From Candidatus Woesearchaeota archaeon CG1_02_57_44 (lineage in GTDB: Archaea; Nanobdellota; Nanobdellia; Woesearchaeales; CG1-02-57-44), in NCBI GenBank assembly GCA_001871415.1, contig MNWW01000036.1, positions 1 through 35,326 on the forward strand: a stretch of DNA of 35,326 bases, written 5' to 3'. Below the pieces are notes generated by a model. That model made no database searches, was not told where the DNA came from, and saw only the letters and a list, made by a program, of their open reading frames with translations. Position 1 is the first letter of the stretch. The number at the start of each line of letters is the position of its first letter. Shown one piece after another: positions 22,978 to 27,220 of the stretch. The translations under genes and the position numbers were made by a program.

Positions 22978-23196
22978 TCAATCCTTCTGTGTCACCGACG
23001 AGAGCGCAAGCGCGACATCTTCCGCCTGCACCGTGCGCCGGCCTGCGTGCAGGGCGAGCGACGAGGATTTCTCAGCGACCTTTCTGCCAACAGCGACGAG
23101 ATGCGCCGCCATGGCAGCTTTCGCGTCTTCGCCTACGCGTATGCCTGGATGCGCTTCCTTGATGAACGCTTCCATTGCGTGAAGGCTTGGTTTCAT
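22978..23196 (-). CDS. Archaeal histone-fold protein
   Basis: RVGEDA...A.HAGRRTVQAEDVALA histone-fold signature; 72 aa. Confidence 0.88.
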   Translation of the reverse strand: MKPSLHAMEAFIKEAHPGIRVGEDAKAAMAAHLVAVGRKVAEKSSSLALHAGRRTVQAEDVALALSSVTQKD

Positions 23197-23340
23197 GTTG
23201 GTGTGGTCGGTGCAGGGGGTATTTTAAGGTTCGTGCCACAGAGCGAGGGAACGGGGGCAGGTGCTGGCGCATCATGGCGTGTCCTGCAGGGTGATTGCAG
23301 GGTGATAATACTTTTAAGTGGACCAGTTATTCCCTTGCTG

Positions 23341-24657
23341 ATGGCTCCGGGCATGGACTCCTCTCACGTGGATCAGATGCAGGGGTTTCTGCATTTTCTG
23401 GCAGGCCGGATCGCGAGATCAGATGCGTATCTGTTCCAGGATCTGGTCTCCGCAGGGACGCTCGCCATCCTCGAGCATGGGGGCGAATATGAGTCGTGGC
23501 GCAGCGTGTACAGGTCTGCCGACGGGCGAGCTGATGAGGAAGTGATGCTCACGCAGTTCTTCGTGCCTGTGGTGAGATATGCCATGCTTGACCAGTGCAG
23601 GGCCTGCAAGGCCCGGCCTCAATGGGGCGCAACCTTCCTCAGGGAGCAGGAGCAGGCGATGCTGGACATGGGCACATCAGATACCGCGGTAATCGCGATG
23701 CGCATGGGGCTCTCGCGTGATGAGTATCAAAGGCGCGCGCGGCTGGTTGATCCGTCTGGCACAGTATCCATCGACGATAGTGAGGCGGGCCTGCTGGATG
23801 TTGTGGGAGATGCAGATGCTGCGTATGATGCAGTCCTTGAGCACGACCAGGGCGCGCGGTATCTGCGCGGGCTCGATGCGCTGCCGGTGAGAGAGCGCAG
23901 GCTGCTCGTGGAGGTCGGTCTGAGGGGCCAGACCTTTGCCAGCATGGCGAGCAATATGAGGTTATCTCCGGGACGAGCCGACCAATTATACCAGCAAGCT
24001 AAAGACCGGATGCGTGAGCAGGTCGATGGCGCATCCAGCAGCAATGGCGCTTGCCATCATCCCAGTCTGCCCAGTTCGTTGGCGTACTCCTATGCGGGAT
24101 TCGATGAGTGGCATCCGGGTCCGGCGGCAAAAGACTTTTTCTGGCGACGGCCGATGGAATATTTCTCATCGATGATTGGCATTGATTTCTATCTTCAGCA
24201 CGCGACAAGGGACGCTTCGCTGTTGCGTCCCGCGGTCGTGGGGTACGCGGATCGTTTTGACCCCTTGGTGCATGGCACCATGGAGGCGCTGCTGCTTGAT
24301 GCGAATGGCGTCCGGGGCGAAGATGCGCGTGACGCAGTGACCGTCCATGCGAATCCGTATGGCAGGAACGATTCGTTCCTCAACATATTCGCGTTCGCAT
24401 TGGAGACCATAGCAGCGTATCAGCTCAATCCCTGGTGGCGGGGGGATGAGGCCGACGAGTCGCTCGGCCGGGCGCAGGCACTGGTGGAAGCCGTATTTGA
24501 GCGCTCAGCGCCAACAGAGGCGATAGTGCTCGCCAGCAGGCACTGCCTGGGTCTTGAGACTCGGGTGGCGGCATGGGCGCTTGGCATGCCGTATGATGCC
24601 GTGCGAAACGCAATGCTCGCCGCCCAGGACAAGGCGCAGGACTTGATGAGGGGCTGA
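23341..24657 (+). CDS. Sigma-70-family (FliA/WhiG-like) protein with a C-terminal extension ending in a second region-4-like HTH
   Basis: QDLVSAGTLAILE (region 2.2), VRYAMLDQCR (2.4), IAMRMGLSRDEY (3), LPVRERRLL...LSPGRADQLYQQAKDRMR (4). Start 23341 or 23353, after TTTTAAG at 23312-23318. Confidence 0.75.
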   Translation: MAPGMDSSHVDQMQGFLHFLAGRIARSDAYLFQDLVSAGTLAILEHGGEYESWRSVYRSADGRADEEVMLTQFFVPVVRYAMLDQCRACKARPQWGATFLREQEQAMLDMGTSDTAVIAMRMGLSRDEYQRRARLVDPSGTVSIDDSEAGLLDVVGDADAAYDAVLEHDQGARYLRGLDALPVRERRLLVEVGLRGQTFASMASNMRLSPGRADQLYQQAKDRMREQVDGASSSNGACHHPSLPSSLAYSYAGFDEWHPGPAAKDFFWRRPMEYFSSMIGIDFYLQHATRDASLLRPAVVGYADRFDPLVHGTMEALLLDANGVRGEDARDAVTVHANPYGRNDSFLNIFAFALETIAAYQLNPWWRGDEADESLGRAQALVEAVFERSAPTEAIVLASRHCLGLETRVAAWALGMPYDAVRNAMLAAQDKAQDLMRG

Positions 24658-24758
24658 GTCGCTAAAAAGTTCTGAATTCCGAACTTTCGTTATTCCATGA
24701 CGCATAACGCAATCGCATATAGTAACACATAAATACTTGCGCGCCTGCATTTTTTCTC

Positions 24759-24833
24759 ATGGTAGCTGCGTCGCACATGAGATCTGTTGGCTGTGCAGCT
24801 ACGTGCGCGACTATTATGTCGGGCACCTGGTAA
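24759..24833 (+). CDS. Putative 24-aa leader peptide MVAASHMRSVGCAATCATIMSGTW
   Basis: ATG about 29 nt after TATA-like CATAAATA (24728-24735); begins MVAAS like the cimA leader; lies in a structured 5' region. Confidence 0.55.
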   Translation: MVAASHMRSVGCAATCATIMSGTW

Positions 24834-24886
24834 CCAATAATAAAATGGTTCCCGGGTGCTGGAGATTCTTGCTAGTGCTTGGGAAC
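24762..24886 (+). promoter_or_regulatory. Structured leader with mutually exclusive hairpins (attenuator-like)
   Basis: Stems paired by hand: 24762-71/24793-802; 24803-11/24818-26; 24823-36/24846-59; 24848-62/24872-86. Confidence 0.6.
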
Positions 24887-24906
24887 TCACGAGGAGGTGG
24901 GGAAAG

Positions 24907-25218
24907 ATGGATGTATGCCACGTGTGCAGTGAGCCGGTCACAAATCCCTTGTGTCCGCACTGCCTGCACGAGACCGTACGGCAATGGGTCGAAGAAGAGG
25001 ACCAAGACATGGCGAGGAGCATCTGGCGTCTGGACGAGGTGTTCCCTGATATGGCTATGGCGTCTGTCCATTGCATCAGGTGCGGGCGTGGCGTAGAGGT
25101 CTGTCCTCATTGCTATACCAAGGAAGTCCGCGACATCCTGGGCAAGGATGAGCAGCTGCAGGCGCAGTTCACGCGCCTGTTCAATTTCCATCTTCACGCC
25201 CCGCCCAACATGGCGTGA
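24907..25218 (+). CDS. Small protein with four CxxC motifs (putative two-Zn binding)
   Basis: CHVC, CPHC, CIRC, CPHC; strong SD GGAGGTG at 24893-24899. Confidence 0.85.
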   Translation: MDVCHVCSEPVTNPLCPHCLHETVRQWVEEEDQDMARSIWRLDEVFPDMAMASVHCIRCGRGVEVCPHCYTKEVRDILGKDEQLQAQFTRLFNFHLHAPPNMA

Positions 25219-25251
25219 TCCGCTGCGAGTTGCCTGCGATTGATGCGAGGC

Positions 25252-25281
25252 GCGGTCTTTAGCGGCCGCTGTTTTTTCTTT
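25252..25281 (+). terminator. Hairpin plus T-tract downstream of the CxxC gene
   Basis: GCGGTC-tttagc-GGCCGC followed by TGTTTTTTCTTT. Confidence 0.55.
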
Positions 25282-25503
25282 ATGATCGCGCGAGGCGATG
25301 GTTAAGGTGTGGGACTTCTGTGTATGCGTCTCATAGGTGCTTCACGCGGTGGACTGTGCACATGCTGAGCTGCTGTCAGCGTCAAGCATCTTTCGCTTGT
25401 GGGGCAGGTTCGGCAGCCTCTGCCTTGCCCCTGCCCTGCGCCATGCTGCAGGGCGCGGGAACAGACCTTCATGAAGTCAGGTTCTTTTTCCATCATCCCG
25501 AAA

Positions 25504-25512
25504 TTATATAAA
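25504..25512 (+). promoter_or_regulatory. TATA box of the cimA leader transcript
   Basis: TTATATAAA centred about 28 nt upstream of the leader ATG (25536), the spacing expected for a leaderless archaeal mRNA. Confidence 0.65.
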
Positions 25513-25535
25513 CTCCCTATGCATTCCCAATAACT

Positions 25536-25613
25536 ATGGTCGCGGCATCAATCGTGGCATGGTCTGTTCCATCTGCCTGCGGCTCTGCCATTATCGGCAT
25601 TATTATTCGTTAG
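25536..25613 (+). CDS. Ile-rich leader peptide of cimA: MVAASIVAWSVPSACGSAIIGIIIR
   Basis: Translated by hand; five Ile codons in the last seven (ATT ATC GGC ATT ATT ATT CGT TAG); ends 32 nt before the cimA ATG. Confidence 0.75.
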   Translation: MVAASIVAWSVPSACGSAIIGIIIR

Positions 25614-25645
25614 AGCAGCCAGACTTCTGGGCTGCGGTGGTAAAC

Positions 25646-27220
25646 ATGGTACAGATAGCAGTGTATGACACAACGCTTCGGGACGGGGCGCAGAGCCCGC
25701 ATGTGCGCTTTGGCATCAAGGACAAGCTGACCCTCCTGCGGATGCTCGATGACTATGGTATCGACTACGTTGAGCTGGGTTATCCTGCAGCGTCCGAGGC
25801 AGAGATGAAGGTCTTTCAGGAGGGCTCAAAGCTAAACCTTGCGACCAATATCGTCGCCTTCGGTTCTACGCATCGCATGGGTGTGGCGGCGAAGGATGAC
25901 ATAGGCATGCATGCTCTTGTAAAATCAGGCGCGAAGGTGGCGTGCATCTTCGGCAAGGCAAGGCCGAGTCATGTGAGCCTGCAACTCAAGGCGAGCCTTG
26001 ATGACAACTTGGCAGCCATCGCTGATAGCGTCTCTTATCTCAAGTCCCAGGGCATGACGGTCTTCTTTGACGCAGAGCATTTTTTTGATGGCTGCGGGGA
26101 GGACAAGGCCTACGCGTTCTCCTGCCTCAACGTGGCGGCTGACGCTGGCGCGCACACGCTCATCCTTTGTGACACGTCCGGCGGAGCCATGCCCCCTGAT
26201 GTGGAGCTGCTGACCCGTGAAGCGGTCAAGGCATTCCCTGGTACAGTCATCGGCATCCACTGCCACAATGACTGTGGCCTTGGCGTGGCCAACACGATGG
26301 CAGCGGTGCGTGCTGGCGCAAGCCACGTGCAGGGTACTATCAACGGCTTTGGTGAGCGAACAGGCAATGCTGACCTTTGCCAGGTGCTGCCCTTGCTGGG
26401 CCTTAAGCTCGGCTGCGCGCTGGGCACAAGAGTCTGCAAGCCAGGTATCAAGCTGAGCAAGACCAAATCCGTATCAGATCGCATCTTCTCGCTGGCTAAT
26501 GTCAAGCCGGACAAGAGCAAGCCATTCGTGGGCGATTATGCCTTCATGCACAAGGCGGGCATGCACGTTGACGCCATACGCAAGGGCGCGTCCTACGAGC
26601 ACATAGCGCCGGCTGCTGTGGGCAATGATACATACTTTGTGCTCTCTGAGCTGTCAGGCAAGGCTAACGTCCTGGCGCTGCTCGAGAAGCATGGCATCGT
26701 CGTTGATAAGCAGGATCCGCGTGTCAAGGCCCTCCTCATGGACGTGGAGCGCATGGAAGCAGAAGGCTATGGCATCAGTGGTCTTCCCGCGGAGCATGAG
26801 CTGCTGATAGCCAAGCATTTCAAGGCGCTGCCCTTCCAGCTGGACTCCTGGCGCATCGTGACTGAGCACATGCATGGCGAGTTCTCTGAGTGCATGATGA
26901 CAGGCGTGCTTGATGGGGCAAAGATTGAGGCCTTTGTCTCCCTGGATGACAACGGTCCGGTTGACGCCATGTTCGTCGCGCTCAAGAAGCTGCTGGCGAA
27001 ATATCCTGTCAGGGGTATATCGCTCATCAACTACAAGGTCATGATAGCGCAGGACAAGGGCCCGGAATCAAGCGTGCGCGTCTACATTGAGTTCAAGGAT
27101 AATGGTCATGAGTGGGCGACCGCTGGCGTATCGACCAATATCCTGGAAGCGAGCATTGAGGCGCTGACCAAGGGATTTACCTACCACCTCCACAGGAAAC
27201 AAAGCAACGTGTCGACATAG
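25646..27220 (+). CDS. cimA: Citramalate synthase (LeuA-related, bacterial-type CimA)
   Basis: DTTLRDGAQ, FDAEHFFDG, LCDT.GG, HCHND.G, NG.GERTGN, HKAGMH, SELSGK, C-terminal regulatory domain with GPVDA and GVSTNILEAS. Confidence 0.85.
   Translation: MVQIAVYDTTLRDGAQSPHVRFGIKDKLTLLRMLDDYGIDYVELGYPAASEAEMKVFQEGSKLNLATNIVAFGSTHRMGVAAKDDIGMHALVKSGAKVACIFGKARPSHVSLQLKASLDDNLAAIADSVSYLKSQGMTVFFDAEHFFDGCGEDKAYAFSCLNVAADAGAHTLILCDTSGGAMPPDVELLTREAVKAFPGTVIGIHCHNDCGLGVANTMAAVRAGASHVQGTINGFGERTGNADLCQVLPLLGLKLGCALGTRVCKPGIKLSKTKSVSDRIFSLANVKPDKSKPFVGDYAFMHKAGMHVDAIRKGASYEHIAPAAVGNDTYFVLSELSGKANVLALLEKHGIVVDKQDPRVKALLMDVERMEAEGYGISGLPAEHELLIAKHFKALPFQLDSWRIVTEHMHGEFSECMMTGVLDGAKIEAFVSLDDNGPVDAMFVALKKLLAKYPVRGISLINYKVMIAQDKGPESSVRVYIEFKDNGHEWATAGVSTNILEASIEALTKGFTYHLHRKQSNVST

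What the first reader, a model, noticed from the sequence alone, without database searches (positions are those of the whole stretch)
24759..25613. Two paralogous MVAAS leader elements: a possible new family of archaeal uORF attenuators
Seen: both uORFs start about 30 nt after a TATA box, are 24-25 aa long and begin MVAAS with different third bases in all four codons (GTA GCT GCG TCG vs GTC GCG GCA TCA). Both contain CATG..TCTGTT (Ser-Val), a ~9-bp stem starting at nt +4 with different but complementary arms (24762-70/24794-802; 25539-47/25574-83), and a second hairpin whose loop holds ATTAT in frame as an Ile codon (24812-17; 25590-95). Inference: a shared scaffold with interchangeable 3' sensor codons (Ile run vs terminal Trp), conserved at both peptide and RNA level.
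Basis: partly seen in the sequence, partly recalled or inferred. Interest (0 to 1): 0.85.

Follow-up and report, generated by a model that had tools for sequence, protein, structure and literature searches.

The report
Archaeal leaderless leader-peptide gene switches
Two tiny genes at the very start of their messages in a groundwater archaeon are conserved ribosome-read switches; one, rich in isoleucine codons, precedes the first enzyme of isoleucine synthesis, a control familiar from bacteria that I could not find described for archaea.

Summary
Both short ORFs are real and conserved, but they are not a shared "MVAAS family".

uORF2 (25536-25613, tail AIIGIIIR) precedes citramalate synthase (cimA). 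A short ORF with an isoleucine-rich tail sits before 35 of 43 cimA loci of the same archaeal order. It occurs on 0 of 43 reverse strands and before 2 of 154 cimA loci from other lineages.

Its true paralogue is a 24-codon Leu/Val-tailed leader before leuA on another contig, sharing 17 identical bases. Such leaders precede 26 of 30 leuA loci of the order.

uORF1 (24759-24833, ending in Trp) belongs to a second family before a Zn-ribbon gene of unknown function. There, 42 of 67 loci carry a short ORF ending in Cys or Trp, against 2 of 67 on the reverse strand. Its last codons pair with the spacer downstream.

In all three families the ATG lies about 27 nt from the TATA centre, so the transcripts are probably leaderless. 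The stop codon is followed by a hairpin.

MVAAS occurs in no relative, and the uORF1/uORF2 likeness is not beyond chance. The mechanism (a ribosome stalled at terminal codons holding a stop-adjacent hairpin open) is inferred. No classical terminator/antiterminator was found.

This scan has noted similar leaders in other archaea. Six literature searches found no published archaeal case.

The parts
24730..24737 (+). TATA-like box (ATAAATAC) of the uORF1 transcript. Its centre lies 25.5 nt before the ATG.
   Evidence: Sequence. In 29 of 42 orthologous Zn-ribbon leaders a TATA octamer centre lies 24.5-31.5 nt before the ATG, with the mode at 26.5.
24759..24833 (+). uORF1: a 24-codon, probably leaderless leader ORF that ends TGG TAA.
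   Evidence: It belongs to a family of 15-40-codon uORFs ending in Cys or Trp before homologues of the Zn-ribbon gene: 42 of 67 loci forward against 2 of 67 reverse.
24762..24802 (+). 5' stem of uORF1: 24762-24770 pairs with 24794-24802 (9 bp).
   Evidence: Seen in the folds. Duplex energy is -14.0 kcal/mol. Pairing of the 5' segment with the rest of the uORF exceeds shuffles (z<-1.64) in 23 of 42 Zn-ribbon leaders.
24803..24826 (+). Hairpin inside uORF1 with loop TATTAT; the Ile codon is at 24813-24815.
   Evidence: Minimum-energy folds.
24822..24860 (+). Alternative helix P1. The last codons of uORF1, including the Trp codon (24822-24830), pair with 24852-24860, which is part of the 5' arm of the long hairpin.
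   Evidence: The duplex of the last 18 nt of uORF1 with the spacer is -22.0 kcal/mol, z -3.8. The 9-bp core is -15.3 kcal/mol. Across 42 leaders the mean is -14.5 against -9.0 kcal/mol for a control segment (p=3e-7), and 31 of 42 have z<-1.64.
24847..24887 (+). Long hairpin (16 bp, loop AGATTCTTG) between the uORF1 stop and the Shine-Dalgarno sequence.
   Evidence: Fold: the region has z -3.48, and 0 of 200 shuffles fold as well. Spacer folds have mean z -3.0, and 32 of 42 leaders have z<-2.
24891..24900 (+). Shine-Dalgarno sequence GAGGAGGTGG of the Zn-ribbon gene.
   Evidence: Sequence. Predicted unpaired probability is about 0.6 in every ribosome state modelled.
24907..25218 (+). Gene for a 103-aa protein with four CxxC-type pairs (Zn-ribbon-like), function unknown.
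   Evidence: No Pfam family reaches its cut-off and there is no NCBIfam hit. Homologues occur in 111 of 401 genomes of the order. Atlas clusters are 'hypothetical protein', mostly from archaea.
25252..25279 (+). Terminator-like hairpin plus T-run after the Zn-ribbon gene. It separates the two transcription units.
25504..25511 (+). TATA-like box (TTATATAA) of the uORF2-cimA transcript. Its centre lies 28.5 nt before the ATG.
   Evidence: Sequence. In 35 of 37 cimA leaders a TATA octamer centre lies 25.5-29.5 nt before the ATG.
25536..25613 (+). uORF2: a 25-codon Ile-sensing leader ORF. Its Ile codons are at 25551-25553, 25590-25595 and 25599-25607.
   Evidence: Ile-tailed uORFs stand before 35 of 43 cimA loci, against 0 of 43 on the reverse strand and 0.5% of shuffles. 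They stand before 2 of 154 outgroup cimA loci.
25539..25583 (+). Possible 5' stem of uORF2: 25539-25547 pairs with 25574-25583 (9 bp with one bulge).
   Evidence: Duplex energy is -12.6 kcal/mol. It is not in the minimum-energy fold. A comparable 5' pairing exceeds shuffles in 15 of 37 cimA leaders.
25584..25600 (+). 17 bases (GGCTCTGCCATTATCGG) identical to the leuA leader on contig C44. They contain the small hairpin 25586-25599.
   Evidence: (p=0.002), and the folds.
25615..25635 (+). Stop-adjacent hairpin H1 (-10.6 kcal/mol). It starts 1 nt after the stop codon and ends at the Shine-Dalgarno sequence.
   Evidence: The modelled pair probability is 0.67 free, 0.81 with a ribosome on the first tail Ile codon, 0.24 on the last Ile codon and 0.00 on the stop codon.
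25636..25640 (+). Shine-Dalgarno sequence GGTGG of cimA.
   Evidence: Sequence. In the free minimum-energy fold it pairs with 25573-25577 inside uORF2, and the cimA ATG pairs with 25569-25572.
25646..27220 (+). cimA, citramalate synthase (524 aa).
   Evidence: TIGR00977 scores 466.9 bits against a cut-off of 450. HMGL-like and LeuA_dimer domains are present.

Best explanation
Both elements are ribosome-read leader ORFs that begin at, or within a few bases of, the 5' end of their mRNAs.

uORF2 gauges isoleucine supply for cimA, the first enzyme of the pyruvate route to isoleucine. When charged tRNA-Ile is short, the ribosome lingers on the Ile codons that fill the last codons of the leader. From there it covers the base of the hairpin that starts right after the stop codon and holds it open. 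In this genome that hairpin abuts the cimA Shine-Dalgarno sequence, so holding it open should raise cimA translation. When Ile is plentiful the ribosome terminates and leaves, the RNA refolds and cimA is damped. A sister leader with a Leu/Val tail does the same for leuA on another contig.

uORF1 is a member of a different conserved leader family, placed before a Zn-ribbon gene of unknown function. Its last codons, always ending in Cys or Trp, form one strand of a helix with the spacer. A ribosome finishing the uORF, or stalled on the terminal codon, therefore switches the leader RNA between two folds.

Shown here: the ORFs, their conservation, the amino-acid specificity of the tails, the TATA spacing, the stop-adjacent hairpins and the P1 pairing.

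Inferred: translation of the uORFs, leaderless starts, the sign of regulation, and whether the output is translation or transcription.
For: cimA leader:
- cimA is citramalate synthase (TIGR00977, 466.9 bits against a cut-off of 450).
- Ile-tailed uORFs stand before 35 of 43 cimA loci of the order. The reverse strand has 0 of 43 and shuffles 0.5%. Outgroup cimA loci have 2 of 154.
- In all 37 leaders listed the last Ile is the last (9) or next-to-last (28) sense codon.
- Between 5 independent pairs of cimA leaders, substitutions fall 23/24/44 on codon positions 1/2/3 (p=0.01).

leuA leader:
- Leu/Val-tailed uORFs stand before 26 of 30 leuA loci, and three more loci have 5 of 8. The reverse strand has 0 of 30.
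- The tails do not cross over: 0 of 37 cimA leaders have a Leu/Val tail and 0 of 29 leuA leaders have an Ile tail.
- uORF2 and the leuA leader of this genome share 17 identical bases (p=0.002).

Shared anatomy:
- The TATA centre lies 25.5-29.5 nt before the ATG in 35/37 cimA and 26/29 leuA leaders, and 24.5-31.5 nt in 29/42 Zn-ribbon leaders.
- Stop-adjacent hairpins beat shuffles: mean z -2.8 with 26/37 below -2, and mean z -3.3 with 22/29 below -2.
- Mean modelled hairpin probability is 0.90 free, 0.89 with a ribosome on the first tail Ile, 0.39 on the last Ile and 0.07 on the stop codon.

Zn-ribbon leader:
- uORFs ending in Cys or Trp occur in 42 of 67 loci forward against 2 of 67 reverse.
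- The uORF 3' end pairs with the spacer at -14.5 against -9.0 kcal/mol for a control segment (p=3e-7).
Against: - There is no expression, transcription-start or ribosome data. No RNA run is on hand.
- Predicted access to the Shine-Dalgarno sequence rises only a little when a ribosome is placed on the Ile run. The mean goes from 0.48 to 0.54 (p=0.012). In this genome it goes from 0.28 to 0.44 or from 0.31 to 0.38.
- Complementarity between the codon run and the Shine-Dalgarno sequence is not above shuffles in the relatives (z about 0). The same holds for the uORF and the initiation region (z about 0).
- In 25 of 37 cimA leaders the hairpin ends more than 12 nt before the start codon. Hairpin opening cannot act on the Shine-Dalgarno sequence directly in those.
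- A ribosome on the stop codon also opens the hairpin. The model therefore depends on dwell time, not on an all-or-none switch.
- For uORF1 a single terminal codon is a weak amino-acid gauge.
- Substitutions in Zn-ribbon leaders show no third-position excess (19/20/23).
- The Shine-Dalgarno sequence of the Zn-ribbon gene is predicted to be open in every state modelled.
Confidence: 0.72

Rival explanations
1. These are classical transcription attenuators. The stop-adjacent hairpin is an intrinsic terminator, and a ribosome stalled on the codon run prevents termination, either directly or through an antiterminator.
For: One clade of cimA leaders carries, right after the hairpin, a conserved T-rich motif of the CATTGTTTCT type. 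So do many leuA leaders, including this genome's leuA leader (CATTGTCTTG). An ATTGT/ATTCT-like motif lies within 14 nt after the hairpin in 11 of 37 cimA leaders and 10 of 29 leuA leaders.
Against: - Neither window leader has a T-run between the uORF stop and the gene.
- T content after the hairpin is not raised in general: 0.27 against 0.32 for cimA and 0.36 against 0.32 for leuA.
- No alternative pairing that removes the hairpin appears when a ribosome is placed on the first Ile codons (0.89 against 0.90 free).
- A ribosome following the polymerase closely would block the hairpin when Ile is plentiful too, which gives the wrong sign. This last point is inference.
Confidence: 0.15
2. One reading: uORF1 and uORF2 are paralogues of one 'MVAAS' leader family, conserved at both the peptide and the RNA level.
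For: - The first five residues are identical, with all third bases different.
- Both have an ATT codon at codon 19 in a small hairpin loop, and both have a possible +4 stem. The stems differ by two changes that alter both sides of a pair.
- The two uORFs lie 777 nt apart.
Against: - Peptide similarity has p=0.13 and DNA similarity p=0.185.
- 1.5 chance pairs sharing residues 2-5 are expected among 474 TATA-proximal ORFs, and MVAA occurs 4 times.
- No orthologous leader starts MVA.
- No other TATA-linked copy exists in the genome.
Confidence: 0.12
3. uORF1 is incidental to a structured RNA leader that binds a protein, for example the Zn-ribbon protein itself in autoregulation, or some other ligand. 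The conserved TG(C/G/T)-stop bases would then serve the RNA fold and not decoding.
For: - The leader is strongly folded (z -3.5; spacers have mean z -3.0).
- The bases around the stop are one strand of a conserved helix.
- There is no third-position excess of substitutions.
- The hairpin loops carry a recurrent TTCT-type motif.
Against: - An ATG-started frame of 15-40 codons ending at that stop is kept in 42 of 67 loci, against 2 of 67 on the other strand.
- Its ATG keeps the TATA spacing of a transcript start in 29 of 42 leaders.
- No Rfam family matches.
Confidence: 0.2
4. The short ORFs encode small hydrophobic peptides that act in trans, for example membrane micro-proteins, and do not sense amino acids.
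For: The Ile-rich and Leu/Val-rich tails are hydrophobic and of transmembrane-like composition.
Against: - The tail residue follows the pathway of the gene downstream without exception in the sets examined: 0/37 and 0/29 cross-over.
- The same Ile tails stand before a second, non-orthologous group of LeuA/CimA-family genes (L007, L009, L020).
- Peptide length and N-termini vary freely.
Confidence: 0.04

Closest known systems
Mycobacterial leaderless polycysteine short ORFs, the cysteine-responsive 'ribulon' (Canestrari et al., bioRxiv 10.1101/834739; abstract and outline read)
   Same: A short ORF begins at the 5' end of a leaderless mRNA. It carries a run of codons for one amino acid and stands before genes of that amino acid's metabolism. 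Several loci share the design. [quoted passage not shown]
   Different: - The domain is different: Archaea, with TATA/TBP promoters.
- The amino acids sensed are Ile and Leu/Val.
- The run is fixed at the very end of the ORF, and a hairpin starts right after the stop codon.
- Sequestration of the ribosome-binding site is not supported as a conserved feature here.
- Nothing here has been tested at the bench.
Enterobacterial and actinobacterial leader-peptide transcription attenuators of branched-chain operons (ilvL, ivbL, leuL; Corynebacterium ilvBNC leader, PMC11857589 and PMC10272879, seen as search listings and abstract starts only)
   Same: A short leader ORF is enriched in codons for the end-product amino acids of the operon it precedes. 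Sister leaders with exchanged codon runs serve the ilv and leu genes.
   Different: - In the two window leaders I found no Rho-independent terminator and no antiterminator.
- The leader ORF is leaderless, not led by a Shine-Dalgarno sequence.
- The codon run is always terminal.
- The target is cimA, a single gene, and the organism is an archaeon.
- The names and layouts of the E. coli leaders are recalled, not taken from a call.
Translational attenuation of ermC and cat by leader peptides (recalled; ErmCL paper PMC5499644 seen as a search listing only)
   Same: A ribosome stalled in a short leader ORF opens a hairpin next to the initiation region of the gene downstream.
   Different: In ermC and cat the stall is caused by a drug together with the nascent peptide. 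Here it would be caused by shortage of a charged tRNA.
TnaC-type arrest peptides that stall at their own stop codon (recalled)
   Same: This applies to uORF1 only. The uORF is about 24 codons long, and its conserved feature is the last residue next to the stop codon.
   Different: No arrest motif, ligand or stall has been shown. The resemblance is only a lead.

Membership tests
Classical leader-peptide transcription attenuator (trpL/hisL/leuL/ilvL type) | A short leader ORF upstream of a biosynthetic gene, enriched in codons of the pathway's end product | tested here: met
   uORF2 has 5 Ile in its last 8 codons and stands before cimA. The same holds in 35 of 43 loci of the order against 0 of 43 on the reverse strand.
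Classical leader-peptide transcription attenuator (trpL/hisL/leuL/ilvL type) | An intrinsic terminator (hairpin followed by a U-run) between the leader and the gene | tested here: not met
   There is no T-run between 25614 and 25645, or between 24834 and 24906. T content after the hairpin is not raised across the cimA leaders (0.27 against 0.32). A T-rich motif follows the hairpin in only 11 of 37.
Classical leader-peptide transcription attenuator (trpL/hisL/leuL/ilvL type) | An antiterminator helix that excludes the terminator and forms when the ribosome stalls on the regulatory codons | tested here: not met
   The hairpin probability does not change when a ribosome is placed on the first tail Ile codon (0.89 against 0.90 free, 37 leaders). 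This is thermodynamic modelling only.
Leaderless sensory short-ORF attenuator (mycobacterial Cys 'ribulon' type) | The short ORF starts at the 5' end of the transcript | tested here: inconclusive
   The TATA centre lies 25.5-29.5 nt before the ATG in 35/37 cimA and 26/29 leuA leaders, and 24.5-31.5 nt in 29/42 Zn-ribbon leaders. This equals the usual archaeal TATA-to-start distance, which I recall and did not take from a call. No transcription-start data exist.
Leaderless sensory short-ORF attenuator (mycobacterial Cys 'ribulon' type) | A tract of codons for the amino acid whose metabolism the downstream gene serves, repeated at several loci | tested here: met
   cimA carries an Ile tract and leuA a Leu/Val tract in the same genome. 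The pattern holds across the order without cross-over.
Leaderless sensory short-ORF attenuator (mycobacterial Cys 'ribulon' type) | An mRNA structure that sequesters the downstream ribosome-binding site and is blocked by the stalled ribosome | tested here: inconclusive
   In this genome the free fold pairs the Shine-Dalgarno sequence and the ATG of cimA with 25569-25583, and hairpin H1 abuts the Shine-Dalgarno sequence. The modelled gain in access is small, and the complementarity is not above shuffles in the relatives.
Leaderless sensory short-ORF attenuator (mycobacterial Cys 'ribulon' type) | Expression responds to limitation of the amino acid | not testable with these tools
   The organism is uncultured, and no RNA run is listed.
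Known RNA families (riboswitches, T-box, ribosomal-protein leaders) | A match to a curated covariance model | tested here: not met
   Rfam gives 0 matches at gathering score over the window. Only chance-level microRNA and lncRNA matches appear in 24600-25700.

The most novel reading that the evidence does not exclude
This archaeal order, probably DPANN archaea of the Woesearchaeota kind, runs a ribosome-read regulon built on one module: a leaderless 20-25-codon uORF, with the sensor codons placed against the stop codon, followed at once by a hairpin.

The module has been re-used with different sensors: Ile for cimA, Leu/Val for leuA, and a single terminal Cys or Trp codon for a lineage-specific Zn-ribbon gene. 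The last of these would work as a termination-linked or nascent-peptide-linked sensor and not as a codon-run gauge. That would be a new sensing mode for archaea, and direct evidence that ribosome position controls gene expression in this domain.
Probability: 0.3. Interest if true: 0.85.

Novelty: new variant of a known kind. Interest (0 to 1): 0.72.

Why it matters
Ribosome-mediated attenuation is a textbook bacterial mechanism. Whether archaea use it has remained open, even though their transcription and translation are coupled (recalled). Six full-text searches found no archaeal case.

Three gene families in one archaeal order carry conserved sensory uORFs whose amino-acid tails match the pathway. 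These are concrete, easily mutated test objects:
- remove the start codon;
- swap the Ile codons;
- break and then restore the stop-adjacent hairpin.

The leaderless layout with a terminal codon run and no evident antiterminator suggests a simpler, steric version of attenuation. The finding also shows that small-genome archaea with very few regulators may lean on the ribosome itself as a sensor. Finally, it flags a widespread Zn-ribbon gene of unknown function as tightly regulated.

Tried and rejected
Searches and alignments that led nowhere:
They gave no close relative of this genome, so I used them only as the outgroup control.
- RNAalifold on a MAFFT alignment of 14 leaders gave 0 pairs because hairpins of different length were misaligned. 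I built no covariance model.
- The phylum-level search returned cimA only in genomes of the same order, so nothing is known outside the order.
- Runs: no RNA holder is listed. Contigs of four DNA runs were identical to the window apart from one C>T at 25684, so there is no population variation to read.

Mechanism ideas tested and rejected:
- The codon run acts as an anti-Shine-Dalgarno sequence. For cimA, run against Shine-Dalgarno gave -5.6 against -5.7 kcal/mol for a control segment (p=0.78, z 0.07). For leuA, z was 0.34.
- The uORF pairs at long range with the gene's initiation region. Mean z was 0.21, 0.44 and -0.23. The strong duplexes of this genome (-29.2 and -26.7 kcal/mol) have z of only -0.9 and -0.5.
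- An antiterminator is formed by alternative pairing. No sign of one was found.

Other leads:
No ileS reached the family cut-off. The class-I synthetase gene on C57 has no codon-run uORF. The script broke on C67 and I did not repeat it.
- Function of the Zn-ribbon protein: Pfam and NCBIfam give nothing above cut-off. The word-based homologue search found only the protein itself. The Atlas gives only 'hypothetical protein' clusters.
Full report
SETTING

The window is contig C8 of a 1.53-Mb assembly with 57% G+C, 77 contigs and 82% completeness. It is archaeal: the window encodes a histone-fold protein, and ORFs I read by eye as TBP and MCM lie downstream (not searched). The only taxonomic lead is that Atlas clusters of one window protein come mostly from Nanobdellota/Woesearchaeota. 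DNA runs that hold the stretch are labelled groundwater or aquifer metagenomes. In the genome collection this genome is the only member of its family; all comparisons are with other families of the same order.

THE TWO UNITS

uORF1 (24759-24833, 24 aa) is followed by 73 nt of spacer, a strong Shine-Dalgarno sequence (24891-24900) and a 103-aa protein with four CxxC-type pairs (24907-25218). No Pfam or NCBIfam family reaches its cut-off for that protein.

A terminator-like hairpin with a T-run follows at 25252-25279.

uORF2 (25536-25613, 25 aa) is followed by 32 nt and then by cimA (25646-27220). cimA scores 466.9 bits on TIGR00977 citramalate synthase, against a cut-off of 450.

CHECK OF THE OBSERVATION

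The coordinates, the MVAAS starts with different third bases, the CATG...TCTGTT strings, the TATA boxes and the ATTAT-loop hairpins are all as described.

The +4 stems are possible (-14.0 and -12.6 kcal/mol). They are not part of the free minimum-energy fold of either leaderless transcript.

The claimed paralogy is not shown:
- Peptide similarity has p=0.13 and DNA similarity p=0.185 against shuffles.
- Among 474 TATA-proximal ATG ORFs of this genome, 1.5 pairs sharing residues 2-5 are expected by chance. Eight 5-mers are shared, and MVAA occurs four times.
- The DNA pattern occurs 7 times in the genome, and only these two copies lie behind a TATA box.
- No uORF upstream of any orthologous locus begins MVA.

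uORF2 IS AN ISOLEUCINE LEADER OF cimA

cimA (E <= 1e-80) is present in 43 of 401 genomes sampled from the order. I examined 43 of the 45 places listed. The two I dropped were a contig-edge fragment in G287 and a partial second copy in G026.

I looked for an ATG ORF of 12-45 codons with at least 4 Ile in its last 8 residues, within 200 nt upstream of cimA:
- It is present in 35 of 43 loci.
- It is present on 0 of 43 reverse strands.
- It appears in 0.5% of 4,300 shuffles.

With a looser rule (at least 3 Ile), 37 leaders were listed. Examples are MEGSIIKRICKIFLIIGIIIIG (L188) and MTDSSKRILTIILGIIIIIS (L207). In all 37 the last Ile is the last (9) or next-to-last (28) sense codon.

In 154 cimA loci from other lineages, mostly bacteria, the same test found 2 forward and 0 reverse, even with GTG and TTG starts allowed.

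Ile-tailed leaders also precede a second, non-orthologous group of LeuA/CimA-family genes (L007, L009, L020).

Between five independent pairs of cimA leaders, substitutions fall 23/24/44 on codon positions 1/2/3 (p=0.01). This fits a translated frame.

THE REAL PARALOGUE: A LEUCINE/VALINE LEADER OF leuA

I scanned this genome for a TATA box, then 24-38 nt, then an ATG-started short ORF, then a gene led by a Shine-Dalgarno sequence. That gave 40 candidates. They include the two window uORFs and a 24-codon ORF on C44, MHDNHSITGSAIIGKSVLLLVLVL, which lies 53 nt before leuA.

This leader shares 17 identical bases with uORF2 (p=0.002).

LeuA (E <= 1e-100) occurs in 47 of 401 genomes. I examined the 30 best of the 48 places:
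- 26 have a 20-29-codon uORF with at least 6 Leu/Val in the last 8 residues.
- Three more have 5, and one has none.
- The reverse strand has 0 of 30.

No cimA leader has a Leu/Val tail (0/37) and no leuA leader has an Ile tail (0/29).

uORF1 BELONGS TO A SECOND FAMILY

The Zn-ribbon gene has homologues in 111 of 401 genomes, 114 places in all. I took 70 places in order of E-value, leaving out three that lie within 400 nt of a contig end. Three more were dropped because the upstream sequence was too short or masked.

Of the remaining 67 loci:
- 42 have an ATG uORF of 15-40 codons that ends 40-165 nt before the gene and whose last residue is Cys or Trp.
- The reverse strand has 2 of 67.
- Among 78 distinct forward uORF stops the last residue is C in 30 and W in 12. 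Among 57 reverse stops it is C in 1 and W in 1.

The last 15 nt plus the stop codon pair with the spacer about 15-25 nt downstream. The mean duplex is -14.5 kcal/mol, against -9.0 for a control segment of the same uORF (p=3e-7). Of the 42 leaders, 31 have z<-1.64. In this genome the value is -22.0 kcal/mol, z -3.8.

In the window this helix (24822-24830 with 24852-24860) competes with the long hairpin at 24847-24887.

Substitutions show no third-position excess (19/20/23). The frame, its length and its terminal codon appear to be kept, but the peptide as a whole does not.

SHARED ANATOMY

The centre of a TATA octamer lies 25.5-29.5 nt before the ATG in 35/37 cimA and 26/29 leuA leaders. In 29/42 Zn-ribbon leaders it lies 24.5-31.5 nt before the ATG, with the mode at 26.5. 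As I recall it, this is the usual distance from an archaeal TATA box to the transcript start, so the uORFs would open leaderless mRNAs.

A hairpin follows the stop codon. The hairpins nevertheless beat shuffles searched the same way:
- cimA: mean z -2.8, with 26/37 below -2.
- leuA: mean z -3.3, with 22/29 below -2.

The stems differ in sequence between lineages.

A pairing of the 5' end of the uORF with its later part exceeds shuffles in 15/37 cimA, 7/29 leuA and 23/42 Zn-ribbon leaders.

MECHANISM: WHAT THE MODELS SAY

I placed a ribosome footprint on the RNA (15 nt before to 12 nt after the first base of the A-site codon, a recalled geometry). The mean probability of the stop-adjacent hairpin in 37 cimA leaders was then:
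- 0.90 when free;
- 0.87 with the ribosome early in the uORF;
- 0.89 on the first tail Ile codon;
- 0.39 on the last Ile codon;
- 0.07 on the stop codon.

Only a ribosome on the last codons opens the hairpin. This fits the strict terminal position of the run. No antiterminator appears.

Whether the output is translation or transcription is open.

For translation:
- In 12 of 37 cimA leaders the hairpin ends 2-12 nt before the start codon. In the window it abuts GGTGG.
- In this genome the free fold pairs 25562-25583 with 25631-25656, which covers the Shine-Dalgarno sequence and the ATG of cimA.
- Neither window leader has a T-run.

Against a general model of Shine-Dalgarno sequestration:
- Modelled access rises only from 0.48 to 0.54 (p=0.012).
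- Complementarity is not above shuffles.

For transcription termination in part of the family:
- A conserved T-rich motif follows the hairpin in 11/37 cimA and 10/29 leuA leaders, including this genome's leuA leader.
- General T enrichment is lacking.

I therefore commit to a steric, dwell-time model. A ribosome held on the terminal hungry codons keeps the stop-adjacent hairpin open. The read-out is translational in the two window leaders and possibly transcriptional in some relatives.

COMPARISON WITH WHAT IS KNOWN

Rfam has nothing here.

Six full-text searches gave no archaeal leader-peptide attenuator. I read one passage of PMC13158618, and it concerns bacteria.

The closest described system is the set of leaderless polycysteine short ORFs of mycobacteria (10.1101/834739; abstract and outline read).

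Earlier notes of this same scan describe Ile leaders before cimA in Asgard archaea, ilv/leu leaders in another archaeon, and Ile/Leu leaders before ileS and leuS in DPANN archaea. I saw these after reaching my reading. They are unchecked AI notes on other genomes and I did not test them, except for a brief and inconclusive look at synthetase genes in this genome.

UNPUBLISHED GENOMES

The counts include G209, G207 and G131 (cimA and leuA) and G335 (Zn-ribbon gene). Without them the counts are:
- cimA: 32/40;
- leuA: 23/27;
- Zn-ribbon gene: 41/66.

No sequence of theirs is quoted in this report.

VERDICT

The 'MVAAS family' is not. The deeper idea is supported by strong comparative evidence: archaeal sensory uORFs on a common scaffold with exchangeable sensor codons. 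The window in fact holds members of two families. The mechanism and the sign of regulation remain inferred.

Noticed in passing
window 23047-24657 (+): A 536-aa ORF just upstream of uORF1 has a weak sigma-70/ECF-like match (TIGR02937, E 3.6e-8, 33.2 bits, below the cut-off of 42.9). It has no Pfam hit. A sigma-like region would be odd in an archaeon.
   Followed up: no
G000 contig C44, 118930-119004 (+), before leuA at 119058: A 24-codon leaderless leader with a Leu/Val tail. A hairpin follows the stop codon, then the motif CATTGTCTTG. It shares 17 identical bases with uORF2.
   Followed up: yes
L213, L207, L201, L198, L215 (upstream of cimA): In five relatives a second short ORF lies between the Ile leader and cimA and ends in an ATGA overlap with the cimA start codon. 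This may be translational coupling.
   Followed up: no
L187, L190, L195, L196, L203, L206, L216 and others, 300-390 nt upstream of cimA: A conserved antisense reading (MSESSPAVETPL...) marks a conserved, divergently transcribed gene next to the cimA leader in many relatives. By eye it looks like a helix-turn-helix regulator. I ran no family search.
   Followed up: no
L104 and L158 (outgroup cimA loci): Two non-relatives also carry an Ile-tailed short ORF before cimA. One is an Anammoxibacter MAG and the other a 61% G+C metagenome contig. These may be bacterial Ile leaders.
   Followed up: no
G000 contig C57, upstream of a 793-aa class-I aminoacyl-tRNA synthetase gene: About 25 nt after a TATA box centre lies a three-codon ORF, ATG TGG TAG. 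It may be chance.
   Followed up: no
G000 C41:5043 (+), C34:1666 (-), C57:3192 (-): Three further TATA-proximal short ORFs of 15-24 codons end in Trp or Cys and precede genes led by a Shine-Dalgarno sequence. By eye, one of those genes looks like an amino-acid permease. I did not check conservation.
   Followed up: no
window 24863-24871 and 25623-25629; spacers of L231-L259: A TTCT-type motif (such as AGATTCTTG or ACTTCTG) recurs in the loops of the post-uORF hairpins of both window leaders and of many Zn-ribbon leaders. It resembles the T-rich motif that follows the cimA and leuA hairpins. Its meaning is unknown.
   Followed up: partly
G238 C14 and G175 C1: In two relatives the Zn-ribbon gene lies 1.5-2.8 kb from cimA, as it does in the window. 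This is weak synteny between the two regulated genes.
   Followed up: no
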